A stretch of DNA of 64,000 bases, from positions 1,798,001-1,862,000 of the forward strand of contig NC_089435.1 of NCBI RefSeq assembly GCF_026210795.1, in the 5' to 3' direction. Made by a program: the position numbers and the translations under genes. This DNA comes from Rhizophagus irregularis (Eukaryota). The notes under the pieces are model-generated. The model searched no databases, had not been told where the DNA came from, and saw only the letters and a list, made by a program, of their open reading frames with translations. This document shows positions 681-61,145 of this stretch, piece after piece; position 1 is the stretch's first letter; each line of letters starts with the position of its first letter.

Positions 681-758
681 TATATAATCGCAAATGGATG
701 ATATAAAAAAAAATAATTTCTTTGGTAAGAAATTTATATATTTATAAGCGATTTCCAG

Positions 759-3700
759 ATGAGTGACAATTCAGTAATCGAAGTTAACGATAATGTTAAC
801 AAAATCGAAATCGAAGTTGATAAAATTGATGATAAAATCGAAGTTGATAAAATTGATGATAAAATCGATGTTGATAAAAATGTTGTTGATAAGTTTTTTA
901 CCTTCGATGATGAACGACATAATGGTAAATCTATTACTATGGTAGAAATATCACCAAATGAAAAATACCTTATTACTTATAGTGAAGAAGATGGTTCAAT
1001 TGTCGGTTGGAATGTTGAAGATATAGATAAGGTACAACTTGAATTTCATCAAGCTGTTAAAACTAATGGAGATAATAAAGATAAGAAATATGGAATCAAC
1101 CGTTTATGCGTTTCCGATGATAAGAAACTTGCTTATATTACTTATACTATTACTGGTAAGTAATAAATTAGTTGATTATGTAGTTATTAAATTATGGTAG
1201 ATATTTATTTTAATATTTTTTTAGTAATCGATATGAATAATAAAAAAGATATTGCGTTATATTTAAATAAAAAACGTTATCGTCGATACTATTTATATTA
1301 TTGTACCTTTAATTTAAAAGGTGAATTTATTTTATATGGTGAAGTTTATGCTGTTTCTGGAAAACATAAAATTATTTATATTTACTCCACACAAACTAAA
1401 AATAACAAATGGGAATATAAGAGATTTTACGAGATACCTGAAGATTATGAATTAATTAGTATATCAAAATATGATAAAGTTTACCTGTTTTCAAATAATC
1501 ACATTTATGAATGGAATATTAATACTGAAAGAGTTGTAAAAATATTTGGTAATAATAAGGATAAGAATAAGGTAATAAATATTATAAAATTTATTTTCCA
1601 ATCAATATTAAATTATAATTAAATATATAAATATTAATTATTTTTTAGTTTGAAACAAAAAATATCGGAATATTCAGTAATGATGAAAAATTTATTTTTC
1701 TAAATATCAATGATAAAATCATCGTTTATTCAATCGAATTGGGAATTTTTATTGCTTCTTTGGATATAAATGATGGTAACCATTTTTAAAAAATTTTATT
1801 TATACTTTAATTATTACTCATATTAAATCATTATTTTTTATTTAGATATTCAACTATATAATTTTATGTATCATACTGGTTTATTTCTTTTACCTTCTTT
1901 ATTCTATTTTACTTCGGATGAAGAAATCAAATATTGCTGGAACAATAAATACGAAAATATGTTTAATCAAATAAAACCAACTGATGAATCAACTGATGAT
2001 CAAACTAAGTTTGTGTTTGGAATTCAAAATGGACGTGTTTGGAAATCTAAATTTGACGAAAAGATGTCAAAGACAAACTTTTCATCTGGAAATTCTGACG
2101 AATTAAACAAAGAACATAACAAAATTGTTGAATGTGATGAATACTTAAATGTTCATTCATTTAATCTATATATGGATACTGTGTCTACATTATTTCAAAA
2201 AGTCACAACAGATGAAAAAGAATTAACTGAATCAACTGAAAATTTAATTAAATGGAATATAAGTGTTGATAACGGTCAAATTAAACTGGAAGTTTTCAAA
2301 AAAATTAATACTAAATGGGAATCAATTAACATAAGAGTTGAAAATTATTATTATCCTTATAAATTTTTTGGTGATTTCCGCAATAATCATAAATTAATTG
2401 CGAGTTTATTATTTAGTAATGATGACATTGTTATATTGACAACATTTGGTATTCTTATTTATACTTTTAGTGAAAATAACAAATCTGGTGAAAAAGAGAA
2501 ATCTATTTTTTTAAACTATTTTTATTTTATGAAATCCAATCATGGTTATATGAATATGAAAACACTTCAATATTACAAAAGAATGCTTTCAAAATCTACT
2601 TTGCCATTACCAAATTATGATGGTTTTAGATTAGATGGATGGGTTTCAGACATAATAAATAATAAGTCAAGTCTTATGAAATATGGGGTTGAATTATTAA
2701 AATTTGCAATTAAAGAACATAAGGTAGAATTAATTGATGATATTTATAAAAAATGTATGACTTATTTTAAAGAGGATTTAATGAACAATAAGTCATTTTT
2801 AAGCATTATCACTTCCGCAATGCCATTACTAGACAAATATTATCCAGAATATATTCTAAAATATTCATCAGAAACGAATATGATTATAGATTCTTCTTTT
2901 TATAGTATAGAGCATCAAAATAAAAATTTACATCTTGATTCTTTTTTTCAATCTCCTCAAATAGCTAATTTATCGAAATCTCTTTTATGGACAAAATGCC
3001 AATTTTATTTTTTTGATTTAGGAATACTAATTTTTATTAATATTTTGCAAGCTTTAATAATACTTTTAACTTTACCCCTTTATTTGATTACATTTTATAT
3101 TTTATCAAAATACAATTTTATTAATAATATTTACGATGTAGATTTATTTTCTCGTATTTATTTCAAAACTGAAAGAAAATATAAAAAAATTTTTAAAAAA
3201 TATGTAACAACGACACCAACAATTACTTTTATGATTCCTTATATTAATTTTGTTAATTATTCAAAAGATTATAATTGGTTTTTAGAATTAATTAGACCTC
3301 AACCTAGTCCATTCACTGAAACAATAAATAGAAATATTTATAAAACATGGAATGGTGAAGCATTAATTAATTTTAAATGGAATGCTTATGGAAAATATTA
3401 TTATGCAATGATTTGGACTGTATTTATGGCTTTGCTTGGATGCTTTACTACTGCTGCAACAATTCCTCAGCAATATATTAATGAAGAAGTTAGACAACAA
3501 CTTTTTATTGCTTCGATTATACTTGGATTTATTCATCTGATTTTAGAAATTCGTCAATTTTTTTATAATATTATTAAGTGGTTCTATAATTTTTGGAATA
3601 TTTTTGGTAAATATAAATGTTTATTTACTATTGTTCTAAGAAAAGAAATTAATTATATAATATTTTATTATTGCAGACATAATTGCTTTTGTGCTTTCAA

Positions 3701-4920
3701 TTTACACTTCTATTTATTGGCTTCAAACAAATGATAAGAACAATAATAAGTATCTAATTCAATTGCTTTCTTTTTCATGCTTGTTTTTGGATATAAAATT
3801 TTTGTTATTTTTTAGAGCATTTGAATATTTTGGTGTATATTTTGCAATAATTATTAGTGTTGGAAAAAAGATTTTATCTTTTTTATTACTCTTATTCATT
3901 ATTATAATAAGTTTTGCACATGCATTTTATATTTTATTATCACCAAAATCTGAATTTTCACTTGAACAATATAATACAAATAATAATAATGATCCAAATA
4001 ATCCTTGGAATTTAGCTCCTAGTTATAGTCAGATTGATAATAATGGAAATATAAATTCAAATCCACTTATGATTCAAATTCCTGATGGAAATACAAACAT
4101 GTTTATAGATATTAAAACATCCCTTTTTGCTATATATTTATTTTTAATAGGTATATTTAAATTTTCATAATTATGTAAATATACATAAATACTTTCTAAT
4201 ATTTTTAAGCAATTCTTCTTATCAATAGGTGATTCAAGTGCATTATCCAATTGGACATATACAGAAAATCCATCAATTGCAGTATTGATTGTTTTATTTT
4301 CCCTTTTAGTTGTTGTATATCTTATGAACTTGTTAATTGGATTACTCAATAATGCAATTGAAGAAGATAATAATAGAGTCTCATATTTGATGCAGAAGGC
4401 AGAGGTAAATAATAATATTATTAAACATTCCATTTCTGTAAATATACTAATATATCTCAACTTTTAGATTTTAGCTGAAATTGAGTTATTTTACCTATTA
4501 CCACATCAGAGACGTTGGCGAACATGGTTTCCTGAAGTAATGTATGTAGTTTTACTTTTAAAAAAAATTTAATGTTATAATTTTATTAATTATTCAAATT
4601 TATTTTCAAGACATTATTATGCCGATTTTGATAAGACTCGAGGAGAAGTTCAAAGATTGATTAAAGAGGGTGAATGGAATACAAAGGAATTCACAGAGAT
4701 GCGGAATATTTTATTAAAAAAACTTGAAATTGAACATAATCCTATTGACAATGAGGCAATATTGGAGAAATTAAAATCCCATGAGAAATTATTGAAAGAA
4801 AATAATAATGAAGTAATATTGGAGAAATTAAAATCTCATGATGAAAAACTAGATAAATTAGAGGAGTTAGAGAAATTAAAGGAATTAGAGAAATTATTGA
4901 AAGAAATATGTGCAAAATGA
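759..4920 (+). CDS. TRP-like ion-transport protein with N-terminal beta-propeller-like region, multi-TM channel domain and C-terminal coiled coil (9 exons)
   Basis: GT-AG exons: 759-1155, 1225-1571, 1649-1775, 1846-3606, 3677-4150, 4229-4404, 4468-4541, 4611-4920 (8 listed; one more exon is not resolved, so the exon count is approximate). Motifs WNGEALINFKW, hydrophobic helices, FLLFFRAFEYFGVYFAII, S6-like YLMNLLIGLL and AEIELFYLLPHQRRW match the Glomeromycota-expanded TRP-like family. Confidence 0.85.
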
Positions 4921-14139: not shown

Positions 14140-17100
14140 ATGAATGAGCTAGAAGATCCAGAATATGATACCATTTGTACGCAATGTAATCAAAAAATAA
14201 TAAATTATCTAAAAAAACTTTGTAGAAGAAAATTTCTTCTTTCTGCGCAAGTAAATAAACCTCAAAGCATACAAAAAAGTAAAATAAACAAACTTTCTAA
14301 AGTCAAATTATATATAGTTAAATTATTTAAGACTAAGTCTAAATTACCTAAAAATAAATTGATTGATAATAAGACAAGCGGGAGTTTTATACTAGACGAA
14401 TTTATTAAAGAAACTCAACTAAATTCAAAATATTGTGATGATTTTATTGAATGGGTTCCACATTCAAATTTAGAAAATATACAATATTTAACAAATGGAG
14501 GAAATTCAAAAATTTATTTTGGAACTTGGAATTTATTGTTAAACACGTCTTTAGCTTCAAACCAATTATCTTCTAAAGTTACTTTAAAAGTCATTAATGA
14601 TTCTGATAATATCAATGATCATATCCTAAACGAGGTAAGGAAAATGAAATAAAAAAAAAGAAAACATAAATATAATAATTAACTATTATGATTTATTTAG
14701 CTTAAAATTCACCATAAATGTCGTAATCCTAGAGTTATACCATTCTATGGGATAGCAAAAGCACCTGTAGGAAAGGAATATGCCATGGTAATAAGATATG
14801 CAGAGAATGGAGATCTACGAAATTATATTCGTAAAGTTTTTCCAAAATTAACTTGGACTTATAGAGCAAATATTCTTATTGAACTATCAAAGGCTTTAAC
14901 TTCAATCCATCAAATGAATTTAGTTCATAAGGATTTCCATTGTAAAAATATTTTAGTAGACAAAGATGATAGAATTTTTATAAGTGATTTTGGACTTTGT
15001 CAACCAATTGACTCTGAAATAGGTAAAAATTAAAGAAAACGATTTTTTGTTTCATAAATATAACTAATAAAATTATATTTTTGCTTTACTAAAAGCTTCG
15101 AATAGTATTCAAGGAGTTTTGCCTTATATCGCTCCCGAAGTTCTGAGATGTAAACCATATACAAAACAATCAGAAGTGTATAGTTTAAGTATGATAATGT
15201 GGGAATTAACTTCAGATGAACCTCCATTTTCAAATAAACATCATGACGCAGGTCTTGCGCTTGAAGTTCTTGATGAACTGAAACCGCTGAGGCCCGAAAT
15301 TGTTAAGGGAACACCAGAATTTTATGCTAACATTATGGAGCAATGTTGGAGTTCTGATCCATTAAAAAGACCTGATGCTTCTCTTTTACCGAAATTATTT
15401 GAAGAAATGATAGGTCTATGTAAAGCGGTTGATAGTATTATATTTTCAACATTTACTCGTTATTCATCATTATCTGAATCTAATTTTGTAACTGGTAGTA
15501 GTGTTAATACAGGTAAAAACATGAATAATAATTTGAATACACTATAACTTAAAATAAATATTATTAATATTGAAATTTTTTTAGGGTATGACATTAGAGC
15601 AAATGATAATCTTAATATGGCTTCAACTTATTATCCAAAGGAAGAAAATACAGTTATGATAAATAATAATAATTCTGTAGATATAGAATTATCATCACAA
15701 CCTAATTCTGTAACGAGTATTATTCAACCAGGTACAATGTTTATTTTATAGTATAGGCATTTAAATGTAAATAATTTAAGTTTCATTTTATATTTTAGAG
15801 TATGAAACCAAAGCGTTTGACTATACTCTCGAAGGTCAGTATACAGAACTTTTAAAATACGAAACAAATACAAACCATTCAATAATACTAAATATCAAAC
15901 TTTAAACTTTTGGTTTATACTGTAGTTCCTACAAGTAAGTACATTATAATTTAATTACTAAAATTATCCGGGTATAATGTGTAGTAGAATTAGGCTAAAT
16001 TTGGCCAATTTTTCCATGATCCATATAAATAACCCGAGCATAATCAATGTTTAAATAGGGCATTATACTGAATACTAATTAACCAATCATTCAATAAAAA
16101 TTAACATTTTTATACTATATTTTATAGTTCGTAAGTTTATTATATTATAACTTGTTACTTAATATTAAATTATTTGCTAACATAATTACTAAACACCAAA
16201 CTTTTTTGTACTACATTTTAAAAAAGCACGTAAGTTTATTATTGATAATTAAATTATTTGCTATATAACTACTAATTTCAATATTTAACCTTTATTATAT
16301 ATTACATTTTATAGATGGTAAGTTTTATTACATTATAACTTATTTTTATTAATAATTAAATTATTTTATCAATTTCAATACTTTAACCTTTTTTATGTTA
16401 CATTTTAAAGAAAGTAAGTTTATTTGCATTATAACTTATTGTTTAATAATTAAATTTGTACTATTTCAATATTTTAACTTTTTTTATATTTATTACATTT
16501 TATAGGTGGTAAGTTTATTTACATCATAACTTATTGTTAAATAATTAAATTATTTGATAATATAAATACTAACATCAATACTTTAACTTTTTTTATACTA
16601 CATTTTATAGATGGTAAGTTAATTTATATTATCAATAATTAAATTATTTGCTAATATAAATACTAACATCAATAATATTTAATTTTTTACATTACATTTT
16701 ATAGTTGGTAAGGTTATTTACATTATAACTTATTGTTTAATAATGCTAATATAATAACTATTAACATCAATTTTTTAACTTTCTTATATTACATTTTAAA
16801 GATAGTAAGTTTATTACATATAATAATTAAATTATTTGTTAACATAACTACTACCACTAACACAATACTTTAACTTTTTATACTACATTTTATAGGTGGT
16901 AAGCTATTTACATCATAACTTAATGTTTAATAATTAAATCAGTTGCTAATTAACTATTAACATCAATATTTTAATTTTTTTTTTATACCACATTATTAGA
17001 TGGTAAGTTTTCTACATTATAACTTATCGTTCAATTAATTAAACTATTTTGCTAACATAACTATTAACATCAATATTTTAACATTTTATGCTACAATTTA

Positions 17101-20100
17101 TAGATGGTAAGTTTATTTACATCATAACTTATTATTTAATAAATTAAGTTATATTATAATTTATCGTTTAATAATTAAATTATTTATTAATATAAATACT
17201 AACATCAATATTATTTTAATTTTTACATTACATTTATAGTTGGTAAGTTTATTACACTATAACTTATTGTTTAATAATTAAAATTGTCTGCTAATTTAAC
17301 TACTAACATCAATATTTTAACCTTCTTTATACTGCCTTTTGTAGATTGTAAGTTTTATTACATTATAACTTATTAATTAAATTATTTGCTAATATGTCTA
17401 CTAATTTCAGTATTTTAACCTTTTTTATATTACATTTTATCTCGGAAGCTCTTTTACTTAATTTTAATAATCTTCCTGGACCAAAAAATTCTGATGATTA
17501 TTATGAATATAATGGTAATATAATTAGTATTAAAACTTCAGGTTTAAAATGATTATAACGAATACTAATAAACTATTATTCACTAATTGTTAAACGGTAG
17601 ATGGTAAGTCTGTTACATTATAACTTATTGTTTAATAATTAAATTATTTGCTAACATATGCTAACATAAATACTAACATCAATATTTTGACATTTTTATA
17701 CTACATTTTATAGATAGTAAGTTCATTTATATCATAACTTATTGTTTAATAATTAATTATTTGCTAACATAAATATTAACATCAATAATATTTTAATTTT
17801 TTACATTACATTTTATAGACGGTAAGGTTATTTACATTATAACTTTTTGTTTAATAATTAAAATTATTTTGCAAATATCATTACCGATTTCAATATTTTA
17901 ACTTTTTATATTACATTTTATAGATTGTAAGTTTATTACTTATAACTCATTAAATTATTTGCTAACATAAATACTAACATTAGTATTTTAACTTTTTTTA
18001 TACTGCATTTTATAGCTCGTAAGTTTTTATTATGGCTTATTGTTTAATAATTAAATGACTTGTTTATATAACTAGTTTCAATATTTTAACCTTTATTATA
18101 TTACATTTTATAGTTGGTAAGTTTATTTACATTTAACTTATTGTTTAATAATTAAATTATTATAACTACTAATTTCAATATTTTAACCTTTATTATATTA
18201 CATTTTATAGGAAGTATTATAGAAAGTAAGTCTATTTACATTATAACTTTATTGTTTAATAATAATTAAGTTATTTGCTAGCATACCTATTAACATTAAT
18301 ATTTTAACTTTTTTATATTACATTTTATAGTTGGTAAGGTTATTTACATTATTACTTATTGTTTAATAATGCTAATATAATAACTATTAACGTCAATTTT
18401 TTAACTTTTTTTATATTACATTTTAAAGATAGTAAGTTTATTACATTATAACTTATTGTTTAATAATTAAATTATTTGCTAACATAAATACTAACATCAA
18501 TATTTTGACATTTTTATACTACATTTTATAGATAGTAAGTCCATTTATTTCATAACTTATTGTTTAATAATTAATTATTTGCTAACATAAATATTAACAT
18601 CAATAATATTTTAATTTTTTACATTACATTTTATAGGCGGTAAGGTTATTTACATTATAACTTTATTGTTTAATAATTAAATTATTTGCTATATAACTAC
18701 TAATTTCAATATTTTAACCTTTTTTTATATTACATTTTATAGATGGTAAGTTTATTACATTATAACTTATTTTTTAATAATTAAATTATTTGCTAACATA
18801 AATACTAACATCAATATTTTGACATTTGTATACTACATTTTATAGATAGTAAGTCCATTTATATCATAACTTATTGTTTAATAATTAATTATTTGCTAAC
18901 ATAAATATTAGCATCAATAATATTTTAATTTTTTACATTACATTTTATAGGCGGTAAGGTCATTTACATTATAACTTATTGTTTAATTAAAATTATTTTG
19001 CAAATATAATTACCGATTTCAATATTTTAACTTTTTATATTACATTTTATAGATTGTAAGTTTATTACATTATAACTCATTAAATTATTTGCTAACATAA
19101 GTACTAACATTAGTATTTTAACTTTTTTTATACTGCATTTTATAGCTCGTAAGTTTTTATTTTGACTTATTGTTTAATAATTAAATTATTATAACTACTA
19201 ATTTCAATATTTTAACCTTTATTATATTACATTTTATAGGAAGTAATTTTATTATAGGAAGTAAGTCTATTTACATTATAACTTTATTGTTTAATAATTA
19301 AATTATTTGCTAGCATACCTATTAACATCAATATTTTAACTTTTTTATATTACATTTTATAGGAGGTAAGCCTATATACATTATAACTTATTGTTGAATA
19401 ATTAAATTATTTCTAATATAACTATTAACATCAATATTTTAACTTTTTTTATATTATATTTTAAAGATAGTAAGTTTATTACATTATAACTTATTGTTTA
19501 ATAATTAAATTATTTCTAATATAACTATTAACATCAATTTTTTAACTTTTTTTATATTATATTTTAAAGATAGTAAGTTTATTACATTATAACTTATTGT
19601 TTAATAATTAAATTATTTGCTAACACATACTTTAACCTTTTTTATACTACATTTTATAGCTCGTAAGTTTTTACATTATAATTTAATTATTTAATTGTTT
19701 ACTAATAATTAATTAATAAAATATTGCTTATTTTAATTTATTAGGAAGAGGATCATGTAAGTTAGATTTAATAATTGCTATATAAAAATAAGTTATTAAA
19801 ATTTTTCCAATTTTTTTTTTAATTCATAAAGATGATGATGTCAACGATAATAAATTTAATGAAGTAGAAGGTATTTATTTATTTTAATATATTTATTTTT
19901 TTTAAAAAAAGGAAATAATTATAATACAGTAATTAAGTAATTTCATTATATTATTAGATTCTAGATATAATACACAAACTTACAAATTTTCTTTAGACGG
20001 TAAAGTGATTTATAAATTAATAATGAAATTATTTAAACTATTAACTTTTTTTATCCTTTCTTTATTATATAGATTTGAACAAGGCTTATAATGATTTAAT

Positions 20101-20134
20101 TAATAATCGTTCAAGATTATTGGATGTTTCATAA
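14140..20134 (+). CDS. TKL Ser/Thr protein kinase with a C-terminal tail built from a microexon array (predicted 45 exons, 601 aa)
   Basis: Kinase and proximal tail exons: 14140-14634, 14701-15022, 15096-15512, 15585-15731, 15799-15834, 15926-15934. Then 32 three-nt exons plus 93-, 15- and 21-nt exons, then 19745-19756, 19832-19870, 19958-19999, 20073-20134 (TAA). Motifs GGNSKIY, VTLK, HKDFHCKN, DFG, APE. The kinase core is secure; the tail model is inferred from splice signals and frame continuity. Confidence 0.75.
16090..19700 (+). repeat. Tandem array of ~35 intron+microexon units (~90-135 bp each)
   Basis: Consensus gtaagtttattacattataacttattgtttaataattaaattatttgctaacataaatactaacatcaatattttaacttttttatattacattttatag-NNN. 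It contains a GTAAG donor, a TACTAAC/GCTAAC branch point, a T-rich tract and a TAG/AAG acceptor. Confidence 0.95.
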
Positions 20135-20970
20135 TTATTTTAAATCTTGACTGTTAACGAATTACATGAAAAGGATCGGTAAATTATGCAAATATAAGTT
20201 TATATTAGATCCATAATTATTTGCAACATATTTTATAGAGTATTTTTGTTTATTATTGTTATTTTACTAAAGGAACATTTAACATTTTATTAAATATATA
20301 TATGACATTTATTTATAATTTGAAGTTCTAAATGTATAAAATATTGTTGATACAATTAAAAAATAATTAATGTACTTGTTGTACGGATTAAATAAAAAAA
20401 AAAAATATCATTACTATCTATTAGGTCAACCATCATTTATAAGAATGTTTCTACATATATATGTTGTAAGTGGAAACGGAATCTATGTGGATACGGGATG
20501 TTTGCCAGAATTAAAGCATAGTGTCGGACTAGGATTTCGTAATGCTGGCTAAGTTCCGGTATTCATACAACGTATACATACATATATATCATATAGAAAT
20601 AAACCTATAAGTTTAGTAAAATTATATAACCAAAATCACTAAAGTTATTTTACCTGTTAGCTTTTGTTTTGAAATAAAACTATACAGTACCTTTCTTTTA
20701 AAAGAGTTTGAGCAATACATTTTCCAATTTTATATCACCTAATATACATTAAATATTCATTATTAAGATTTTGGATGCACTGTACAATATTTAAAACAAA
20801 TTTAAATACAAAAATTCTAATTTGATTTTTTTTCAGAATTAAAATTTTACTGACAACGATTACTATCCATTAAAGTAACTGGCCGTTAGTAATAATTACG
20901 GCATTTCAGATTACAACCTGAGGTGCAAACGCGAATATTTAATTTGTGATTAAATCATATATAATATATA

Positions 20971-21374
20971 CAGTCAAACTTCGATATACCGATACTGGGA
21001 AAAAGTATCGGTATTCTGTACATATATATTATGATGCGGGCCAAAATTTCTAATTCTGGTTCGCACTACGAAAAACCAAAAAAATATTATTTTGGCCAGA
21101 CGCTCGAATTATAAGTTTACAATTTTTTTAACTCGGGCCAAACCTATAGTGCCAGCCCAAATTAAAACCAGTGTAACCTAAATTATCGGTACTTCTTTAT
21201 TATACTTTACTATAAAGAGACAAAGAAAGAGTATCGTTACATGTTACATTGCGAAACTATATATAATATCGGTACAACAAGGTTTTTTTATTAATTATGA
21301 AATGGGATAATTGAAATTTATCGGTATAGACCATTTATCGGTATATAGAATATCGGTACATCGAGGTTTGACTG
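20971..21374. mobile_element. Tc1/mariner (pogo-like) MITE
   Basis: TIR CAGTCAAACTTCGATATACCGATA / TATCGGTACATCGAGGTTTGACTG, flanked by TA at both ends, with internal TATCGGTA repeats. Confidence 0.88.
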
Positions 21375-21569
21375 TACTATCTGATATGTATGACACAATC
21401 TAGTGCAGTAAAAATAATCAGATTCTGGCCAAAATTAGATTGTACAAGTAAAAAAACTTAATTCCGGCGGAATTTTTATTAAATCCTTAATGACTTTTTA
21501 ATATTAATCAAATAATCTCACTTTTATAGTTAAAACTGATCTAATATACTAAACTAATAACTATGTATC

Positions 21570-21990
21570 TTAGAATTGCAGATTAGTATTCGGCAACCAG
21601 GTATATATAGATATTTAAATGCGTGTAACTTAAGTAAATTCTAATTTCATTTTGTATTTTTAGGATATGAAATTAAAGCATATGAATATACTCTTAAAAG
21701 TCAGTATACAATATTTTTTAAAATATGATAAAAAGTATACGTTAATTATTCAATAATAATAAATCATTTACCAATCATAACTATAAAAATTTTATTAACT
21801 TCTGGTTAATAGATGTTTTGAGTAAGAAGTACATTTTATTATTTAATAATTAAAAATATCTAGCAAGTTTACTAACATTATAACTTATTATTTAATATAT
21901 AATTAAATCATAGAAAGTCGTAGTAGTAATTAAATCATTTGCCAATTATAATTACTAAACATTAAAAATTTAAACTTTTTTTTTTATACT
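21570..21990 (+). pseudogene. Orphan duplicate of the kinase tail exons preceding the microexon array
   Basis: caaccag|gta...ttag|gatatgaaattaaagcatatgaatatactcttaaaa|gtcagtatac (YEIKAYEYTLK) parallels 15725-15845 (YETKAFDYTLE, gtcagtatac). The following sequence resembles the array intron (acattataacttatt). Confidence 0.6.
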
Positions 21991-23224
21991 ATGAATTTAG
22001 TTAAAACATTTTCTAATTATGAGTACTAAAAATCAATATTTTATTAATGGACTTCTATTTTCCCGTAAAAAAATTGATCATCTTTATATTTTCGTTTCAT
22101 CTGATGTAATATGACATGATTTTTGTGGATAAATCTTCATATTTTCCCGGGTTATTTCTTTTTTTAAAAAAAGTATTTTTTTTTTCATTGAGACCAAATT
22201 CAGATGTTCCTTATGTTCCATATTCGGCAATATTAATGTCTATTCGGAATATATTTTTTTTTCTAAAAAAAAAAAATGAAATCATTTATTTTAATGAAGC
22301 TTATTGGAAACTTTAACACATTGATATGAACGCAATGCGAAACACTTTTAAATTTATATCATAACGGATTTCCGGAATAAAACCGGTATGTTAAGAGTAG
22401 TAAGTCAAATCTAAATAGGGTAAGTGAATTTTAATAATTATTCCATTGTTAACTGTTAAGGCAAAATCTTTTAAACTTCTCCGGTAAAAAATATTATTAG
22501 GGGAATGTTAAAAGTTTCAAAAAAATATTAATAGTAATTAAAACGCAATTTGAATTTTTTTAGTAAAAAAAAAAATTTCTCTCATGGAAAACAAGTTTTA
22601 ATGGACAAAATTTTTTCTAATTAAATGTTTCAAAAAAAAAAAATATAGTAATTATAGTAATCATACTTATGTTAAATTATATTATATATATATCACATTA
22701 TTCATATTATTACGATAAATATTATTTAAAATAATCTATTATTGCCGATGAATCTATAGAATTTATAAATTGTTTTCTTTGTTAAAGAGGTTTATTCCAT
22801 GTAAAGTTTCTAAAACTAAGAAAATAATAAAATATTTTTGTAGAACATTAGCGGAAACAATAAAATATATTTATTTATTTAACCAAACACAATATTAGAA
22901 ATTTTTTATAGACCGTGGAGAATAGTTATCCAATTTTTATCAACGATTATTTGACAAACAAACATTCGTATAAGGAGAACAACATCTGTTTTATTAATAA
23001 GGAAATCTATTACGTAATTATTAAAGGGGAAGGGGGATAAATATGTTACAGTTAAATAAAATCATATAATTTATTAAAAATCTAACAAAGGTATTAATTG
23101 ACATGATCAACAAAATGTCTCTAACCTTATAGGTTTCTCTGGTACCACCTTAGACGCTATAAAATGTCAATTTGTGCGTCAACTGTCAACTCAAATTTTG
23201 CTCCTACTTTTTTTTAAAAAAATC

Positions 23225-26903: not shown

Positions 26904-27350
26904 TCTAACCAAAAATTTTTAACAGGAAGGCAACTAGATATGTTTTAAAGCTTTTCCTGCTATATGAAAAAATCTGGGACAACAGATCTAACCAAAAGTC
27001 TAACCAAAAATCTAACCCAGGTCTAACCAAAAATGTATAGCAGGAAGGTAACTAGACATATTGTAAAGCTTCCCCTGCTATACGAAAAAATCTGGGACAG
27101 CAAAGTCTAACTAAAAATCCAACCCAGGTCTAACCAAAAAATGTATAGCAGGAAGGCAACTAGACATATTGTAAAGCTTTTCCTGCAATACGAAAAAATC
27201 TGGGACAACAGGTCTAACCAAAAGTCTAACCAAAAATCTGACCCAGGTCTAACCAAAAAATATATAGCAGGAAGACAACTAGACATATTGTAAAGCTTCC
27301 CCTGCAATAAGAAAAAATCTGGGACAATTAAGTCTAACCAAAATTTAACC
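26904..27350. repeat. Four ~108-118 bp tandem repeats, each with an internal hairpin and TCTAACCAAAA iterations
   Basis: The unit tctaaccaaaaatgtatagcaggaagg(c/t)aactagacatattgtaaagctt(c/t)cctgc(t/a)atacgaaaaaatctgggaca starts at ~26904, 27021, 27129 and 27247. Confidence 0.9.
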
Positions 27351-27586
27351 CTAATCATAAATTGCTCTGATTCTTTGACGAAGCCTATTTTCATACCAAT
27401 TTTGATAGTAACTCCCAATATGAGATTGACATCGACCACTAGATGAACCTGTAGGTTTACCACATACAGCACAAGGAAAGTGTGATTTTGTCTTCCAATG
27501 AATGCGACAACCTTCTGGCCTCACACAAGGATGACCACAAGGCTTCCTGTGTTATGTAAATATTCACAAGTATATTCTCCAATCAT
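27351..27586 (-). pseudogene. Small Cys/His-rich (putative Zn-binding) protein with a frameshift
   Basis: MIGEYTCEYLHNTG, then a 1-nt shift, then KPCGHPCVRPEGCRIHWKTKSHFPCAVCGKPTGSSSGRCQSHIGSYYQNWYENRLRQRIRAIYD*. Confidence 0.55.
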
Positions 27587-27638
27587 TTTTATTAAGTATA
27601 AATAAGTTAAATTAAAAAAAACTTTATATAATATAAAA

Positions 27639-27989
27639 ATGTCTACCCAAGCTATACCAGCTAAGCCAACATACCGTGAAATTGAATCAGCTCTAATTGC
27701 TGTAATTAAAGCAGGCATCCTTTACAAGAAACCAAAGGATGGAAAATTCATGTTATGTTACAAACAAAGGATAATCAACTTGCGTCAAGCAGAAGAACCA
27801 GAAAATTTTGTTCTTGAAACAGCACAATCTATTCTACCTAATGAGACAAAGTATCAGCAAATCTTGGAAAATTATAAGACCTGGTATAGCAGAGAGCCAA
27901 AACTTTTGTCTGCTATTAATAAGCTATACAGGTTATACTATGAATTGGCAAAAGACTACTTCCTCACAGACTCCTATCTTAATTCGTAA
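27639..27989 (+). CDS. Hypothetical 116-aa intronless protein within the integrase-associated cassette
   Basis: Clean ORF with an aaaATG context, divergent from the Cys-rich ORF. The 3' end abuts or overlaps the integrase, so it may be truncated. Confidence 0.5.
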   Translation: MSTQAIPAKPTYREIESALIAVIKAGILYKKPKDGKFMLCYKQRIINLRQAEEPENFVLETAQSILPNETKYQQILENYKTWYSREPKLLSAINKLYRLYYELAKDYFLTDSYLNS

Positions 27990-29030
27990 GTACCCATTGT
28001 GGTGGAAGTTCTGTATCATCTGGTATAACCAAAAGTTCTTCCCTCACAAAGGATCTCTCTAATTCTTTACCATCATCATCAGTAAGCCAGTATAAAACTG
28101 GTTGATTTTTCTGTGTTAAAGACATATGGATATGATAAATCTTAGGTGACCAATTCATATCTCCTGCTCGACGTCTTCCACCTTCCAGATCATTTGGTTC
28201 AAGTAAGTACCTTACACTTATATCAGGTGGTAGTTTTTCCTCTTCATACCCAACAGGTCCATCATGAGAATAAGAAGATCTGGAAGACACTTGTGATTTT
28301 TTTATAGCTACAGCAGGAGATATACCAAGTTGTTGGGTCACTGAGTTATTTATACTTTCTACAGCAATAGGTAAATTTTTTACCCAGACTCGAGATCTCA
28401 TTTTACCTAAAGTTAGTAAGTCAGATGCATCTTGAGAGGGAAATAGTTTCTCAACCAAGGTACGATTATATCACTCCACAATGCCAACAGTACGCTTAGA
28501 CTTGGCCTTCTGAATTTTTACACCATGGGAAGTCATCAGCTTTTCACACTTACCTTTAAACTCTGAACCCCTATCTGTAATCAATAATTTTGACCAAGTG
28601 AGTGGACATGTTGTATCATCATATACCTTTTCAAAAGCCCGAGCAATAGTATGAGAAGTTAGGATTCCCTGTCAATCTTTAACACTGGTTGAACCTATGG
28701 GAATACTTCCTTTATACTTTGATGCTATATCAACTATATTGAGACAGAAAAGATAAGTCACATGTCCAATCTTGTCATATGGCATATACAAAATGTCAGC
28801 TTGATGAACTTCATTGAGAACTTGTATAGAACTGAAACTTACTTGAGGGATAAATCGGGGACGAGGTTTGTGGACTTGATGTACTGCCTGTCTTTCAAGC
28901 CAATCCTGCACTTCATCTAAGGTGAAATCATGTCCAGCATTTTGTGATGTCTCATACAATTTTTTGGCAGTCCTCTGATATCCAGATGGTTTGTGGAATA
29001 TTCTGCGTAAAGTCAAAGTCACCTCCACAT
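27979..29030 (-). pseudogene. Polinton/Maverick-like (retroviral-type DDE) integrase with two in-frame TGA stops
   Basis: One continuous frame: LRRIFHKPSG...KLY...EVQDWLERQAVHQVHKPR, VHQADIL, LNIVDIASKY, LITDRGSEFKG, GIVE*YNRTL, WSPKIY, SFVREELL. Stops at 28674-28672 and 28473-28471. Confidence 0.8.
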
Positions 29031-29069
29031 TTTGTGCTTCATCAGAATCTATCGGAATAATAGGAATCA

Positions 29070-29351
29070 ATGGGAGTTGAACAGGCATATCTTGACCTAT
29101 TAAATAGCAACTTTGATTTGCACAAACAGCTAGTTCAAGAGGAAACAAATAATATTTCCAATAAAGAGAAAATCCATAAACTCACAAAGGAAATAGAAGC
29201 ATGTGAACGATACATTTCCTACCTCGAAAAAAATCTTGTCTCACATGAGGATGAGATTGATCAGTTAAAAGCAGAGTGTCAGTCCACTTTAGTTGAACTT
29301 GGAAAGTATCGAGATCACTTAGAGTTAAAGGAAGAGGCACTTGTTGCCTAA
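29070..29351 (+). CDS. Coiled-coil protein fragment, probably part of the same mobile cassette
   Basis: 93-aa heptad-rich E/K/L ORF within the GC-richer island. Confidence 0.4.
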   Translation: MGVEQAYLDLLNSNFDLHKQLVQEETNNISNKEKIHKLTKEIEACERYISYLEKNLVSHEDEIDQLKAECQSTLVELGKYRDHLELKEEALVA

Positions 29352-33893: not shown

Positions 33894-36800
33894 TTAAATG
33901 TTAACTTCACATTCAAAACAACCAGTATTTAAGATTTCAGTAAGTTTACGACTTGTATGATATGCTTGTGTATGAGGTTGTATAATAGAAGCATTTGCTT
34001 GCTCTTGTACTAAAGTTTTGTTTGCTTTTATAAATTCAAACATATCAACTTCTGATTGATTATCAATATTAAGTACTTGATATTTATAATTTCCATCCCT
34101 ATTTATTTCATAATATTCATTAATACATCTAATCCATTCAGATATAATATTTTCTAGCATTGTTATGGTTGGTCTATTGGAAGGATCTGAATCCCAACAT
34201 CTTTTCATTAAATCTATATAACATTTTGGAGTATTTTCAATAATTTCAGGGCGTTCCCCTTTACAAACACTCAAAATAAGGTGATGATCATGTGCTACAT
34301 GATTAAATGGAGGAATACCAGATGCAAATTCCCACATTATCATTGAAAAGCTATAAATATCACTTGCTGGTGTATAGGGTTTTTTTCTTAATATTTCAGG
34401 CGCCATATAAGGCAAAACTCCATAAACTTCATTTAATTTACTATCAGAGTCTTGTAAATCACTTATAGGTTTACATAATCCTAAATCAATAATAAATAAC
34501 TCATTGTAATTATCTGATAATAAAATATTACCATCATGAAAATCACCATGAGTTAAATTTGATTCATGAATTACTTTAAGTCCTAATACAATTTTTTTCA
34601 ATAATTGTAACTTTTCTTGCCATTTAAATTTAATTATATCAGATAAACATTTTCTTAAACTTCCTTTTTTTGCATAACTCATTACTATTATATAATTTAA
34701 ATTATTTGGATCTTGGGTAAATCCAAAGAATTGAATAAATTTTGAAAATGATTTTTTCTGACAATTATAATGATATTTCCACTGTATAAATAATAAAACA
34801 AAATTAATTTTTGTCAAAAGAAAAAAAAAATGCCAATAAAAATAAATAATATACCTCATCCAGAAATTCACTATTTAAATTTGTTGAATTATTAAGTATT
34901 TTAAGAATAACCTCATAGCTGAATTGTCTATTCCATTGTTGTTTGTCAAAATTCCAACTAAAAATTGGTCCATCCAACCAGATAGCTTTATTAATTTCAC
35001 TAAATCCTCCTTTATCATAATAATTAATATTTGACAATTTATTATAAGGTATCCATTCTAAAATTTCATAACTATTTTTGGCATTTAGTTGTGCTTCTTG
35101 AATAAATTTATCAATAAATTCATTTTTACTGGTCCACTTTGAAAAATTATGTTGAAATTGTTTGACATTACATTGTTGACACCACTGGTAATTAGTATAT
35201 AGCTGTTTGCATATATTACATAATTCAACTTCAATTTTAAAACCTATTTTATTACTTTCTGTTGATTTTTGATGCCAATAAAAGGCTTTTTCTAAATTCT
35301 TTTCTGTTCCCTCCCTATTATAATACTTATTGGCTAAAATATTCATTGCATAATTATTACCATTTTCTGCTGCTTTTTGATACCAATAAAAGGCTTTTTC
35401 TAAATTTTTTTCTGCTCCTCCATAATAACATCTATTGGCTAAAAAAAACATTGCATAAATATTACCATTTTCTGCTGCTTTTTGATACCAATAAAAAGCT
35501 TTTTCTAAATTCTTTTCTGTTCCTTCTTCATTTTCATAACAAAAGGCTAAATTATTCATTGCATAATCATTACCATTTTCTGCTGCTTTTTGGTACCAAT
35601 AAAAAGCTTTTTCTAAATTCTTTTCTGTTCCTTCTCCATTTTCATAATATAAAGCTAAATTATTCATTGCATTTATATTACCATTTTCTGCTGCTTTTTG
35701 GTACCAATAAAAGGCTTTTTCTAAATTCTTTTCTGTTCCCTCCCTATTATAATACTTATTTGCTAAATTATTCATTGCATTTATATTACCATTTTCTGCT
35801 GCTTCTTGATACCAATAAAAGGCTTTTTCTAAATTCTTTTCTGTTCCCTCCCCATTATAATGCTTATTGGCTAAAATAAACATTGCATTAATATAACCAT
35901 TTTCTGCTGCTTTTTGATACCAATAAAAGGCTTTTTCTAAATTCTTTTCTGTTCCTTTTTCATCTTTATAACATAAGGCTAAATTAAACATTGCATTAGA
36001 ATTACCATTTTCTGCTGCTTTTTGATACCAATAAAAGGCTTTTTCTAATTTATTTTCTGCTGCTTCTTCATTTTTATAACATGAGGCTAAATTATTCATT
36101 GCATCTATATTACCATTTTCTGCTGCTTTTTGATACCAAAAAAAGGTTTTTTTTAAATTATTTTCTATTCCTTCTCCGTTTTTATAACATATAGCTAAAT
36201 TAAACATTGCATCAGTATCACCATTTTCTGCTGCTTTTTGATACCAATAAAAGGCTTTTTCTAAATTCTTTTCTGTTCCTTCTCCATTTTCATAACATAA
36301 AGCTAAATTATTCATTGCATTGATATTACCATTTTCTGCTGCTTTTTGATACCAATAAAAGGCTTTATCTAAATTCTTTTCTGTTCCTTCTCCATTTTCA
36401 TAACATAAAGCTAAATTATTCATTGCATTGATATTGCCATTTTCTGCTACTTTTTGATACCAATAAAAGGCTTTTTCTAAATTCTTTTCTGTTCCTTCTC
36501 CATTTTCATAATATAAAGCTAAATTAAACATTGCATCAGAATCACCATTTTCTGCTGCTTTTTGATACCAATAAAAGGCTTTTTCTAAATTCTTTTCTAT
36601 TCCCTCCCCATTTTCATAACATATGGCTAAATTATACATTTCTTCTTTAACACCATTTTCTGCTGCTTTTTGATACCAATAAAAGGCTTTTTCTAAATTC
36701 TTTTCTGTTCCCTCCCCATTATAATACTTATTGGCTAAATTATTCATTGCATTTATATTACCATTTTCTGCTGCTTCTTGATACCAATAAAAGGCTTTTT

Positions 36801-37332
36801 CTAAATTCTTTTCTGTTCCCTCCCCATTATAATACTTATTGGCTAAAATAAACATTGCATTAATATTACCAATTTCTACTGCTTTTTGATACCAATAAAA
36901 GGCTTTTTCTAAACTCTTTTCTGTTCCTTCTCCATTTTCATAGCATAAAGCTAAATTATTCATTGCATTTATATTACCATTTTCTGCTGCTTTTTGATAC
37001 CAATAAATGGCCTTTTCTAAATTCTTTTCTGTTCCTTCTCCAGTTCTGTAATTATTGGCTAAATTAAAAATTGCATCAGTATTTCCATTTTCTGCTGCTT
37101 TTTGATACCAATAAAAGGCTTTTTCTAAATTCTTTTCTCCTTCTCCATAATAATATCTATTGGCTAAAATATTTATTGCATAATCATTACCATTTTCTGC
37201 TGATTTTTCTAAAGAATTAATACATTCTTTACACCATAATTCTTCAGTAAAGGGTTTATTGCAATATGAACAATTTTTGGTGTTTACTATATCAGTAACT
37301 GAGATATTAGATTTACTAAATTTGGTTTCCAT
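33894..37332 (-). CDS. Sel1-like-repeat (18 units) + TKL protein kinase, ~1121 aa
   Basis: Exons 37332-34855 and 34781-33894. 36-aa repeats xxxAMxNLAxxYxNGEGTEKNLEKAFYWYQKAAENG, CxxC motifs, then KGGFS, VILK, HGDFHDGN, DLG, APE. Confidence 0.92.
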
Positions 37333-39360
37333 TTGTTTTATTTTAGAAATTTATTTTACCAAAAAAATTATTTTTTTAGATAAATATTTTTTAGCAAATA
37401 TTTCATGAATGAGTTACTAAAAAGGAATACTTTAACCAAAAGTAGAAGTTACAACAAAAAAATATTTTTCGGTCCATAATTTTTCCGATGCTCTGATCTG
37501 CGTTGAAAAATTCCTTTAAAAATACCGGGATCGTCTGTACATTTAAGGAGAGTATAATCACATGACTTTTAATAGCGCAAAAATTTTTGTATTGTGCCGA
37601 TCATAATTAACTATAAGTTATTAAATAGTAATGTCGTCTTATTAAATCTTTTCCGGTTAATAAAAAGTTTAAATGTAAAATTGAATAATATGGCATCGTG
37701 ATTGAGCAATACTGTACAAATATGGAAAATATATTAACCATTTGTTTGATTACATGATTATATTAATTTATTTTGCAAGTAAAAAAAAAGCCACACTGAC
37801 TAGTCAAATACAGTCAAATATTATGACCTAAAAATTACGTAACATTTTTTTTTTTCAAAAATATTTCAAACTTCTTTTTTAACTTACTCCCGACTCCCAA
37901 ACTTCTCTTCCAACTTACTTAATCATAAACTTTTAAGTTATCTGAAAAGCCTTTCTTGAAGATTGAAATCCCCGGATCATGGAACGAATTTATTACATTT
38001 ATTACTTTAAAATTTTCATTTATAAAACCAATATTATCAGGTATGGCATATGCCACAAAAGCAGTTAATGTCACCAAGATGAAGTGACAAATGCTCCTTC
38101 CCCAAAGTGATTGATCCAATTTAAGGTGCTACTGATCTTTTGATTCTTATTATAAGTTGAAACTTTCTTTTAATAAATTAATTGTGTAATGATACTCTTT
38201 TTTTAATATATATTCATTATTTTGTTACAATTCATGTTACTGTTTTTAAATTTAAAATAGTTTTTAAGCAATTTTATAATAATTTTATTTTTATTTGTTA
38301 TTATAAAAAGTTTATTTATTTTTGTGTAAAGGATCTTAATAATAATGTGATATAATTAAATAATAAAAGGGGGTTTTGAAAATTTATATAAGCGTATGAC
38401 AAAGACATTTTACGTCGCCAAGATGAGATAACCACGCCGCCAAGATGAGGCCAAGATGAGGTGAGCATTTGATCCTAAAGATGGGCAAATCTATATAACC
38501 GTAAAATCGGAAGTGAGTAAAAATCTAATTTATATGTTTACAAGTTATTTACTGTATAAAAATAGAATCAATTACATATGAAAACTTAGTCATAATTATT
38601 ACATTATTGTTTATTCAGACTGCGCAAATTCAACTTCATTTTGTTTACGTACGGAATATATCTTTTAACGGAAAAAATTGAAAAAATTGAAAAAATTATA
38701 GTAATTTTATCGAGTTGCAAGAAAATTTGCACATCAATCTCTGCAGGTAACTTTGTTCTATTTTCACATCACCTTGCAAGTTGTATGATGTGAAAATCTC
38801 ATAATGGGTTAGGGTTAGGGTCAGCAAAGCATGTTGATAAACAACTGATAGGAATAATCATCTATAGAATATCTACAGAATAGGAGAATAGCGTGTTCAC
38901 GAAATATATAAAATTTAATGTTATATAATATATAGTATACTTAGTATTTATGAGAATCGATGGAGTCACAAAAAATAATTCTCGCATGTATTTGCAATTT
39001 TTATTTCGCTATGCATCAGTTTCTGCAATACTAAAGATAGTTTATGTTTACTTTTAAGAGTAATGGTGATATTTAAAATTATATTTTAAGTCGTGTAAAA
39101 GGTGAAAATTTAGCTATACGTAACTTGTCAGTGACCTTACTTTAATTGAAGGTCATGGTTATTGTCACATGTAAAATAATGATTACGAAAAACAAATCAG
39201 AGTCAGTAAATCATTAATGATTATGATTGTAATTTAAAATTTGAACTTAACACCACAAAATTATATCATATTAAATAAAATAACTCGTTTTTTTTCATAT
39301 AAAAGTATTATCTTTATTTATATATATAAGATATTTCTATATATAACAAGATACTTGTGG

Positions 39361-46180: not shown

Positions 46181-48523
46181 ATTTGAATATTTACGATTTA
46201 CCTCGCTTATTTAAAAAATCAATTGTGTAAATACCATAACCGATAATCACTAACTTTTTCCAAATAATGAGTATTAACTGAACTTTAAATAATAAGAAGC
46301 TTATAATTAAATTAAACTTTCTGATGCACTCGGCTAAAAATTTTTGAAAAAAAAATCGAGAAAAATCCTCTATCACTCTTAATAAATATAGAAAAACCAT
46401 ATTAGGCGCGAAAAGTGTTTAGCGACATTTTATAACGAAACAAGATCTTTTATTAACAAGTTTTTTCGAAATATTGAAAGTTTATTAGTACGATCGCTTG
46501 AGAGTAAAATAGAAAAGTTTATGGTATAACTTCAAAGTCTCCTAAATTTTTCTAAAATATAAGTCGAGATACTAGGTTGAATATTGAAATAATAGAGAAG
46601 AATTGTATTTAAACTATATCGAAAAGATGTTGAAACTATAGAAAGACAAATTCAAGTCTCCGTGAGGCGCAGTAAAAATGAAAGGATAATTGGCAGTTTC
46701 GTTGGACTGAAGTAATAATTATAAATTATAAAAATTTTTTTATTCCATTTTTTTTCTTGTAATTTGGCTACGTAATAAATAAAATGTGATTTTATAAAAC
46801 TCGTTGCTTCGCACTGAGAACTTTTTTATATAAAACAATCTACTAATTGTGACGGTATGAGTGAAAATTCGTAGTTACCGACAGGGTTAAATTATCGTCA
46901 ATCAAATTACTGACACAGATAGGTGGTTGGCACAGCAAAATTATCAAAAAAAATTATTAAACACAAAACACACTTCGCAAGTCGCAACTATACACATTTA
47001 TTAATTTATTCTGTTTAATATTTATGAATTAACTGTTAATGTTTTAATTGTGGCTAAAATTTATTATAAATATATTGAATTATATTGTTCATATTGTAAT
47101 ATTTATATTGTATTTAGTATTTACATCATTGATTATTTTTTATCAAAGTCTAAAAAAAATTGTCAGCAATTTGATTCACTTCGGTAATTTGAATGTCGAT
47201 TATTTGACTGTCGGTAATTTGACTGTCGATAATTTGACCAGACTCATTTTTTTTAACAAAAATTTTAAAATTTTGTCATGGTTAAATCAAATCAATATTT
47301 GTTAACATATTTATTATTTAAGTTAAAATTTTGCGACCAGTATTTTTTAACTCTGGCCAATTTGTAATTTTTGGCCAGAATTAAGTGGAGAAATCACCGG
47401 TAGTGATAAATAATTGTAATTCGAAAATTATACCCACAAATAAACAAACAGTATTGAAAGCAACAATTTTTTTTTCTTTTCCTCCATTATGCTTTTCAGA
47501 TATGTTAAGCTATATTCTTTTAAGTTTTTTGGCATAAGATGATTTTTGTTATTTTTTTTTTTATATAATTTCTTTAAAAATTTAGCCTTTAAAAACAATA
47601 TTTTTTTCTCAACATCAGTAATCACTGAGTTTAATTATTGGGAATTGGGATGTCAGTAATTTCATTGTCGGTAATTAAATGTCGGTAATGTGACCGGGTC
47701 CCAAAAATTAATTTATGCAAATGAAAATTTCTTAATTTATTCATTGCTCATACTCGTATTACGTGACTTTATAGAAAAAAATTATATAATAAAAATTTTA
47801 ATAAATAGGAATATAGTATGGTATGAGTATTTTTTCCCGTTCTGCAAGTTTACTTAAAGCGTCAAAGTTGGTTTTTAATGTCAATTTTGACTTATTTAAC
47901 AGATTTTGGTTTTCTTCTGTTTTCCCTCTAAATTTAATTCTGCCCAACATTAAATGATCAGCATAGAAAATTTTCTTTTTTGGAAACCCGTGTTTAAACA
48001 CAAATAGAAATCGTCATTATAAATCTATTTTTAATAATTATTAATTCAAATTTTTTTACATATTATAGAATAAAAAACTTAATTTAATCTTGATCACTAG
48101 TTGTTAAGAAAATAACGCAAAATAATATAAGATTAGAATTTAGTATATATTCGTTATAAACGAATGATATTTTTAAGGCTGTAATAAAAAAGAATTATAA
48201 ATTATCAATAATTTTTTTTTTATAAATATGTTAAATAGGAATTTAATGTATTTTATACATTCATTTTTGTAAGAAAATGCGATTACTTCCTTTTATTTAA
48301 ATCACATGAACGGCAAATTTTATCATTACATAATGTATTTTTAAAGGAATTTCTCAACGCAGATCATTGCATCGGAAAAATTATGGCCCGAAAATATTTT
48401 TTTTATTGTAACTTCTACTTTTGGTTATTTTAATAACTCATTCATGAAAGTTTTCGTATAAAATCATTTGTCTAGAAAAATAATAATTTTTTTTAGTAAA
48501 ATAAATTTCTAAAATAAAAACAA

Positions 48524-60740: not shown

Positions 60741-61145
60741 TTAAATTTTTTTTTAGATATTTATTTATCCAATTGGTTGAGATGATCAAATATAAATACA
60801 CAATTTGAATTTCAAAATAACTAAAATAACTTAAAAATAATATTCCTACGTGATAATGTAATATAATAAGGTATGTTATTAAATCGAAATAAATTATTAA
60901 AATAATAATGAAAATCGGTTGTATCATTCGAAAATGAGTTCAAAAAAAAAAAGAATACCCTCACATATCGAAATGTATAAATAAACCATTTTCAGAAAAA
61001 CTCCCATAAGATATAATAAATATGAAAAACCGAATAAAAATATTTCTTAAAATTTAATATCCCAATAAATAAATACATGGAAGTCTCCAAAAAGACTTAA
61101 ACAGAAGAAGCTTGAATGTTAAAAAATATGTAAAAATTTAAAATT

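What the first reader, a model, noticed from the sequence alone, without database searches (positions are those of the whole stretch)
16128..19662. Kinase tail encoded one codon at a time: tandem array of 32 three-nucleotide microexons separated by near-identical introns
Seen: the apparent satellite is a run of complete introns (GTAAG donor, TACTAAC/GCTAAC branch point, T-rich tract, TAG/AAG acceptor; mostly 85-133 nt), each followed by exactly 3 nt before the next GTAAG. Triplets and start positions: TTC16128 CAC16227 ATG16315 AAA16411 GTG16506 ATG16611 TTG16705 ATA16802 GTG16896 ATG17000 ATG17104 TTG17240 ATT17345 [93 nt] ATG17601 ATA17714 ACG17819 ATT17924 CTC18016 TTG18114 [15 nt] TTG18331 ATA18429 ATA18532 GCG18637 ATG18743 ATA18846 GCG18951 ATT19053 CTC19146 [21 nt] GAG19363 ATA19467 ATA19570 CTC19660. 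Upstream and downstream exons are also phase 1. Joining them all gives a stop-free tail: ...YTLEVPTIPHESDVDSDDVDSLLLNFNNLPGPKNSDDYYEYNGNIISIKTSDDNDSLGSIIEIDNSDDSDSRSNFIIGRDNTRRGSYDDVNDNKFNEVEDSRYNTQTYKFSLDDLNKAYNDLINNRSRLLDVS*. The AG and GT and their 3-nt spacing are kept while the intron bodies carry indels, which suggests selection on splicing (inference). Isolated 3-nt microexons are known; I do not know of a described array of dozens inside one fungal kinase. Standard gene finders and short-read aligners would probably miss it.
Basis: partly seen in the sequence, partly recalled or inferred. Interest (0 to 1): 0.95.

Follow-up and report, generated by a model that had tools for sequence, protein, structure and literature searches.

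The report
One-codon exon array in fungal kinase
A kinase gene of the root-symbiotic fungus Rhizophagus irregularis holds a 3.5-kb repeat of short introns separated 32 times by exactly three bases, with splice signals intact while the rest drifts, so it likely spells an acidic tail one codon at a time; this is untested in RNA, and a similar design is reported in truffle immune genes.

Summary
Observation confirmed. All 32 triplets lie where stated; AG-NNN-GTAAG occurs 34 times in the array (two more nested in the 15- and 21-nt exons) against twice in the rest of the window, both strands. The gene is an R. irregularis PF07714 kinase. Its last exons lie beyond the array and are conserved in R. 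clarus. Over 30 units the seven splice-signal bases show 0 changes against 1.74 per intron column, while triplet positions 1 and 3 (amino-acid-changing) show 11 and 8 and the wobble position 4. That points to selected, coding microexons. Inclusion in mRNA is not shown: two polyA runs barely covered the gene, none of 71 database proteins holds the triplet-coded stretches, and skipping every triplet also leaves the frame open. The design is not new: three papers cite alternative splicing of multiple or tens of codon-sized microexons in Tuber nank genes (Iotti 2012, seen second-hand only), and this scan noted similar arrays on other DNA, one behind a kinase. New here: Glomeromycota, a kinase tail, split (phase-1) codons, and a model species where it can be tested.

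The parts
14140..15512 (+). Exons 1-3 (14140-14634, 14701-15022, 15096-15512): N-terminal region and protein kinase domain with Gly loop, VTLK lysine, HKDFHxxN, DFG and APE motifs
   Evidence: Pfam PF07714/PF00069 above cut-off for exons 2 and 3; motifs; first 100 aa identical to R. irregularis DAOM 197198 protein P0001
15585..15934 (+). Tail exons 15585-15731, 15799-15834 and the 9-nt exon 15926-15934, all phase 1; the flanks of the 9-nt exon resemble the array unit
   Evidence: present in annotated proteins P0002, P0015, P0017, P0021, P0022
16128..17347 (+). First run: 13 three-base candidate exons between repeat-type introns of 85-133 nt
17441..17600 (+). Decayed junction (17441-17448), then a 93-nt exon (17449-17541) and a 59-nt intron that do not belong to the repeat; from 17454 the exon is a piece of a tail common to many R. 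irregularis kinases, likely inserted
   Evidence: (loose ends and high paralogue depth at 17454-17515); the exon is used in annotated P0015 and partly in P0021
17601..19662 (+). Second run: 19 three-base candidate exons plus a 15-nt (18211-18225) and a 21-nt (19240-19260) exon, each with a nested in-frame 3-nt option (18223, 19258); contains a recent block duplication (about 17601-18431 versus 18743-19469)
19745..20134 (+). Last exons (19745-19756, 19832-19870, 19958-19999, 20073-20134) coding a conserved C-terminal motif and the stop
   Evidence: annotated in P0021; homologous in R. clarus P0007, P0040 and Glomus cerebriforme P0059

Best explanation
The repeat is a tandem amplification of one 'short intron plus three bases' unit inside the tail of an R. 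irregularis kinase gene, and the three-base pieces are likely real exons that would be spliced in, probably in varying subsets, to build an Asp/Ser/Asn-rich linker between the kinase and a conserved C-terminal motif. Shown: the anatomy, phase 1 throughout, every internal exon a multiple of three, frozen splice signals and fast-changing triplets. Inferred: the unit arose by an in-frame duplication across a small exon and spread by unequal crossing-over (block duplications are visible); each ~100-nt intron is recognised on its own (intron definition, from general knowledge of short fungal introns) and removed in turn, so a triplet is first joined to the upstream exon and never has to be defined alone; pairing a donor with a later acceptor skips triplets in frame. 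Because the introns are phase 1, each residue is set by two neighbouring exons, so a skip changes length and can also create a new residue; 75-95% of random subsets stay stop-free. The likely effect is a linker that varies in length, charge and Ser/Thr sites between isoforms, paralogues and strains.
For: 0 parsimony changes at GTAAG and AG in 30 units against 1.74 per body column (3.6 at G/C columns, none of 12 G/C columns invariant); 10.1 expected at GT+AG; counting the one decayed junction as 2 changes, P=0.003. 38 distinct gap runs in the intron bodies, none changing the 3-nt spacing in those 30 units. Triplet positions 1 and 3, which are codon positions 2 and 1 in phase 1, have 11 and 8 changes and diversity 0.64 and 0.67 (matched or exceeded by 2 and 0 of 94 body columns); position 2, the wobble, has 4 and 0.35. 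In the recent block pair triplets differ at 4 of 27 bases, introns at 24 of 626, one-sided P=0.024. The three irregular exons (15, 21, 93 nt) are all multiples of three. Triplets drawn at random from the array's base content are stop-free in 1.3% of 20,000 trials. Phase-1 reading gives D13, S6, N3 of 32 residues; the same linker in paralogues P0009, P0011, P0041 is 51-61% D/E/N/S, the model 53%. The gene continues past the array. Precedent that such exons are spliced in fungi: passages in PMC4986451, PMC3689799, PMC13449251, PMC10197012 and 27 three-nt exons in 26 Coprinopsis genes from long reads (10.1101/2024.05.10.593147).
Against: No RNA read or transcript-derived protein showing even one triplet junction. 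0 six-residue matches to the triplet-coded stretches among 71 proteins held, and annotated P0021 and P0015 jump from the 9-nt exon to the 93-nt exon, though these are genome annotations that would miss 3-nt exons. In two polyA runs only 7 of 383 and 14 of 433 laid reads were 99% alike or better (about a quarter of each run read), so expression there is low or the strain differs. The open frame proves little. The tree of ~95-nt units is poorly resolved, gene conversion can distort parsimony counts, units were picked by their splice sites (corrected only by adding the one decayed junction found), and the block-pair test rests on 4 differences. 7 of 35 introns lack a CTRAY motif. Alternative rather than fixed inclusion is an analogy to Tuber, not a result.
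Confidence: 0.68

Rival explanations
1. The splice sites are used and selected, but as stepping stones or decoys for removing a long intron; mature mRNA mostly lacks the triplets.
For: Skipping all triplets keeps the frame; annotated P0021 and P0015 lack them; frozen splice sites fit this too.
Against: Ratchet points have 0 nt between AG and GT (recalled); here the spacing is 3 in 34 cases and 0 in one, itself part of a triplet. It does not explain faster change at codon positions 1 and 2 than at the wobble, nor why a short-intron gene would need stepping stones for an intron that the array itself creates.
Confidence: 0.14
2. A neutral intronic satellite: one intron-plus-triplet unit amplified by slippage and unequal crossing-over, with junctions kept alike by recent amplification or gene conversion.
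For: TRF reads it as a ~95-105 nt tandem array with higher-order periods; recent block duplications exist; one junction has decayed; similar units at 21830-22000 lack intact GTAAG donors.
Against: Bodies differ by 17% pairwise with many indels while the splice bases do not vary; conversion would homogenise the triplets along with the AG and GT beside them, yet the triplets are the most variable bases.
Confidence: 0.1
3. The array was a working microexon linker but this copy is now silent, or its transcripts end or stay unspliced before the array, giving the short annotated proteins.
For: Very few exact RNA reads in two runs; many annotations end at the 36-nt or 9-nt exon; retention of the intron after 15934 gives a stop within a few codons.
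Against: Kinase motifs and all 45 exons are intact; recent duplicates still keep their splice sites; the C-terminal exons are conserved across species.
Confidence: 0.08

Closest known systems
Codon-sized microexons of Tuber melanosporum nank (NACHT-ankyrin) genes (Iotti et al. 2012, Fungal Biol 116:261; not held, known only from passages in PMC4986451, PMC3689799, PMC13449251, PMC10197012)
   Same: Fungal gene of an expanded family; multiple or 'tens of' 3-bp exons; read as a diversifying device.
   Different: Host gene here is a PF07714 kinase, not an NLR; phylum Glomeromycota; the exons lie in a predicted acidic linker, not a sensor domain; alternative splicing is reported there and untested here. 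Whether nank exons are phase 1 or flanked by near-identical introns could not be checked.
Micro-exon genes (MEGs) of Schistosoma mansoni (PMC10526429, abstract start and passages)
   Same: Runs of very short exons down to 3 nt; variation by alternative splicing.
   Different: MEGs have exons of 3-81 nt with long introns up to 5 kb and code secreted proteins with a signal peptide; here introns are 59-193 nt and near-identical, and small exons make up under a tenth of an intracellular-type kinase.
Isolated fungal microexons, e.g. Coprinopsis cinerea (10.1101/2024.05.10.593147, passages)
   Same: 3-nt internal exons are spliced in fungi and missed by annotation.
   Different: 27 such exons are spread over 26 genes there; here 32-34 lie in one gene.
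Expanded PF07714 kinase family of R. irregularis (PMC6123716, passages)
   Same: The host gene is a member; it carries a piece of the family's common tail.
   Different: No microexon array is mentioned in the passages seen.

Membership tests
Tuber nank-type codon-sized microexon array | Tens of 3-nt exons in one gene | tested here: met
   32 triplets plus 2 nested options between intact AG and GTAAG; met at DNA level only
Tuber nank-type codon-sized microexon array | Inclusion and alternative splicing shown in transcripts | tested here: inconclusive
   Two polyA runs gave 7 and 14 near-exact reads and no informative joint
Tuber nank-type codon-sized microexon array | Host gene is a NACHT-ankyrin NLR, exons in its sensor part | tested here: not met
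   Four pieces scanned gave kinase families only; 13 homologues carry kinase families only. It works like nank by analogy, but is not a nank gene
Schistosoma MEG | Short exons separated by long introns (up to 5 kb) | tested here: not met
   Introns 59-193 nt
Schistosoma MEG | Gene composed of short exons (3-81 nt) | tested here: not met
   Triplets give 96 of 1806 coding bases; three exons of 322-495 nt
Schistosoma MEG | N-terminal signal peptide, secreted | not tested
   No predictor run; the N-terminus is acidic and polar by inspection
Recursive splicing ratchet points | Acceptor directly followed by donor (0 nt; recalled) | tested here: not met
   Spacing 3 in 34 cases, 0 in one that is part of a GAG triplet
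Neutral tandem satellite | Head-to-tail repeats | tested here: met
   TRF periods 94-105 and multiples, 70-81% matches
Neutral tandem satellite | Change spread evenly along the unit | tested here: not met
   0 changes at 7 splice bases, 11/4/8 at the triplet, 1.74 mean in the body
R. irregularis expanded PF07714 kinases | PF07714/PF00069 domain with catalytic motifs in a Rhizophagus genome | tested here: met

The most novel reading that the evidence does not exclude
A subfamily of Glomeraceae kinases uses arrays of phase-1 split-codon exons as a combinatorial device: stochastic skipping, plus unequal crossing-over in the DNA, gives each nucleus or transcript a linker of different length and sequence, including residues that exist only at skip junctions, under diversifying selection. 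It would be a hidden layer of protein variation in arbuscular mycorrhizal fungi that all current annotations miss, and an independent origin of the Tuber nank design in a kinase.
Probability: 0.3. Interest if true: 0.8.

Novelty: new variant of a known kind. Interest (0 to 1): 0.58.

Why it matters
Splicing of dozens of consecutive 3-nt exons strains the usual picture of exon recognition, and the only printed fungal precedent that I found (Tuber nank) is cited second-hand. R. irregularis is a sequenced, cultured model with many strains, so inclusion, order of intron removal and skipping can be measured with one long-read amplicon. If true, annotations of this kinase subfamily are wrong (truncated or split genes), and repeats masked as satellites in AM fungal genomes may be coding.

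Tried and rejected
No whole genome is held for this window, so no genome-wide scan for other arrays. Run search: no RNA holder listed on record; 24 rows. laid 4 of the 24 runs at 90% likeness: X1 and X15 cover introns like exons and behave as DNA; X23 and X24 (polyA) gave mostly paralogue reads (91% and 89% ran on unlike) and no canonical joint, not even for the kinase introns, so the absence of triplet junctions says nothing. Metagenome pattern scan: 7 single matches, none in an array. Protein searches and cluster look-ups found genome annotations; none with triplet-coded residues. ESM Atlas for the C-terminal motif: unnamed short clusters, no family. Stop-free joining rejected as evidence. 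Assembly artefact rejected. A first script had the 9-nt exon one base off and gave a false frameshift, corrected. Literature: 10 searches; those pairing microexon or micro-exon with Rhizophagus, arbuscular mycorrhizal or Glomeromycot listed 3, 4 and 2 papers; none by title or abstract start concerns such an array (one, PMC10197012, read in passages). Iotti 2012 is not held. No supplements were read; long-read annotation files of R. irregularis that I could not see may already hold these exons.
Full report
What is there. The window is AT-rich fungal DNA with kinase and Sel1-repeat genes. The first 100 residues of the gene at 14140 are identical to a protein of Rhizophagus irregularis DAOM 197198, and all 13 hits are Rhizophagus kinases. 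Exons 2 and 3 pass the Pfam cut-offs for PF07714 and PF00069, and the catalytic motifs are intact. TRF reads 16.1-19.6 kb as a tandem array of about 95-105 nt.

Check of the observation. AG-NNN-GTAAG occurs 34 times in 15900-19800, once elsewhere on + and once on -; each other spacing from 0 to 24 gives 0 or 1 in the array. The two extra sites are nested at the 3' ends of the 15-nt and 21-nt exons, which look like local 12- and 18-nt duplications around a triplet. The 45-exon model is phase 1 from exon 2 onwards and gives 601 residues with one stop. One junction has decayed (17441-17448: AG lost, GT to GG) and its remains supply the acceptor of the 93-nt exon. That exon is, from 17454, a piece of a tail shared by many R. 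irregularis kinases (loose ends and depth) and is followed by a 59-nt intron unlike the repeat, so it is likely an insertion. Contigs of two DNA-like runs match 16790-17640 letter for letter, so the array is no assembly error, though these runs may include the assembly's source.

The gene spans the array. The JGI model P0021 joins the 9-nt exon, part of the 93-nt exon and the four last exons, without any triplet. The C-terminal motif is conserved in R. clarus and Glomus cerebriforme (16 proteins at E up to 0.001 among 1.84 billion representatives, 10 looked up by name, all Glomeraceae). Other annotations stop at the 36-nt or 9-nt exon or list the tail as a separate small gene. Three of those small models (P0033, P0036, P0037) contain translated repeat-type intron, so such introns exist in other strains or paralogues; contigs with other letters at triplets 17714 and 17819 point the same way.

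Is the array under selection? I aligned the bodies of 30 introns that are followed by a plain triplet (of 35 array introns; left out were the foreign 59-nt intron, those before the 93-, 15-, 21- and 12-nt exons; the 193-nt intron before the first triplet was also not used), built a tree and counted changes. Body columns average 1.74 substitutions (3.6 at G/C columns, none of 12 invariant), with 38 distinct gap runs. The five donor and two acceptor bases have none; 10.1 are expected at GT and AG alone. Because units were found by their splice sites, I added the one decayed junction as two changes: P=0.003 for GT+AG, 1e-5 for all seven bases (Poisson). The triplets go the other way: 11, 4 and 8 changes. 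In phase 1 the first and third bases are codon positions 2 and 1 and the middle base is the wobble, so change is concentrated where it alters the residue. Tree-free diversity agrees: 0.64, 0.35, 0.67 against a body mean of 0.17. In the recent block duplication triplets differ at 4 of 27 bases and introns at 24 of 626 (P=0.024). Limits: short units, weak tree, possible gene conversion, few differences. The open frame is no evidence: skipping everything is also open, and 60.6% of shuffled orders are stop-free; only random triplets of array composition usually fail (1.3% open). The predicted residues are D13, S6, N3 of 32, like the 51-61% D/E/N/S linkers annotated in three paralogues.

RNA. The run search listed no holder on record as RNA. 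Of four runs laid, two were DNA-like; two polyA runs, about a quarter read, gave 7 of 383 and 14 of 433 reads at 99% likeness and no usable joint. None of 71 proteins held has a six-residue match to the triplet-coded stretches, but all those named are genome annotations or unrelated. Inclusion is therefore open.

How it most likely works. An in-frame duplication across a small exon made an intron-plus-three-bases unit; the flanks of the 9-nt exon resemble the unit, and in P0036/P0037 a repeat-type intron leads straight into an Asp/Asn-rich exon, so either end could be the source (inference). Unequal crossing-over spread it. Short introns recognised one by one and removed in turn would carry each triplet into the mRNA; pairing a donor with a later acceptor would skip in frame. 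Of 666 possible direct joins 11 make a stop, and 75-95% of random subsets stay open. The product would be an acidic linker of variable length between kinase and C-terminal motif. I put real inclusion at 0.68, and regulated or functional combinatorial variation at about 0.3.

Comparison. The original is not held. This gene is not a nank gene and not a Schistosoma MEG (PMC10526429, abstract start and passages), but works like the former if spliced. Long reads show 27 three-nt exons in 26 Coprinopsis genes (passages). PF07714 is the commonest motif among expanded R. irregularis genes (PMC6123716, passages). Ten searches showed no paper on such arrays in Glomeromycota or in kinases; the library lacks most subscription papers, and supplements were not read. 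The scan's own notes list similar arrays in other genomes, unchecked by me, none in this genome or alike in sequence.

Verdict. Real, well beyond chance, with a clear signature of selection; a new variant of a known but little-studied design; RNA proof missing. Interest 0.58.

Noticed in passing
window 21640-22010 +: Orphan fragment homologous to the 36-nt exon, the next intron and the 9-nt exon position, followed by decayed repeat-like units without intact GTAAG donors (one AG-AAA-GT remains near 21910); no kinase frame of 90 aa or more lies in 20134-21660. Likely the remnant of a paralogue's tail.
   Followed up: partly
window 17441-17600 +: A fragment of the common R. irregularis kinase tail with its own intron sits in the middle of the array beside the only decayed junction; strain C2's P0015 has the same exon with several residue differences.
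   Followed up: partly
window 16131-19744 +: CTRAY motifs lie 33-60 nt before the acceptor in the array introns (one at 15), while most ordinary introns of the gene have none; a far branch point may matter for tiny exons.
   Followed up: partly
window 34804-37350 - and 48518-52410 +: Two Sel1-like repeat kinases in opposite orientation with 18 and 22 near-identical 108-nt repeats (85-88% matches).
   Followed up: no
window 729-4920 +: Large multi-exon membrane protein, by recall like the TRP-type channels of Rhizophagus; not scanned.
   Followed up: no
window 26986-29351: 119-nt tandem repeat (26995-27351) next to ORFs of higher GC, one integrase-like by recall (28672-29181 -); possibly a mobile element.
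   Followed up: no
window 54171-62494 -: Cluster of BTB/TLD-like gene pieces (names recalled, not scanned).
   Followed up: no
proteins P0005, P0007, P0040, P0044 (R. clarus, one contig): Neighbouring accessions hold a kinase ending at the 36-nt exon and separate tail pieces, as if a hard-to-annotate stretch also splits the gene in R. clarus; P0007 has a proline-rich linker instead.
   Followed up: no
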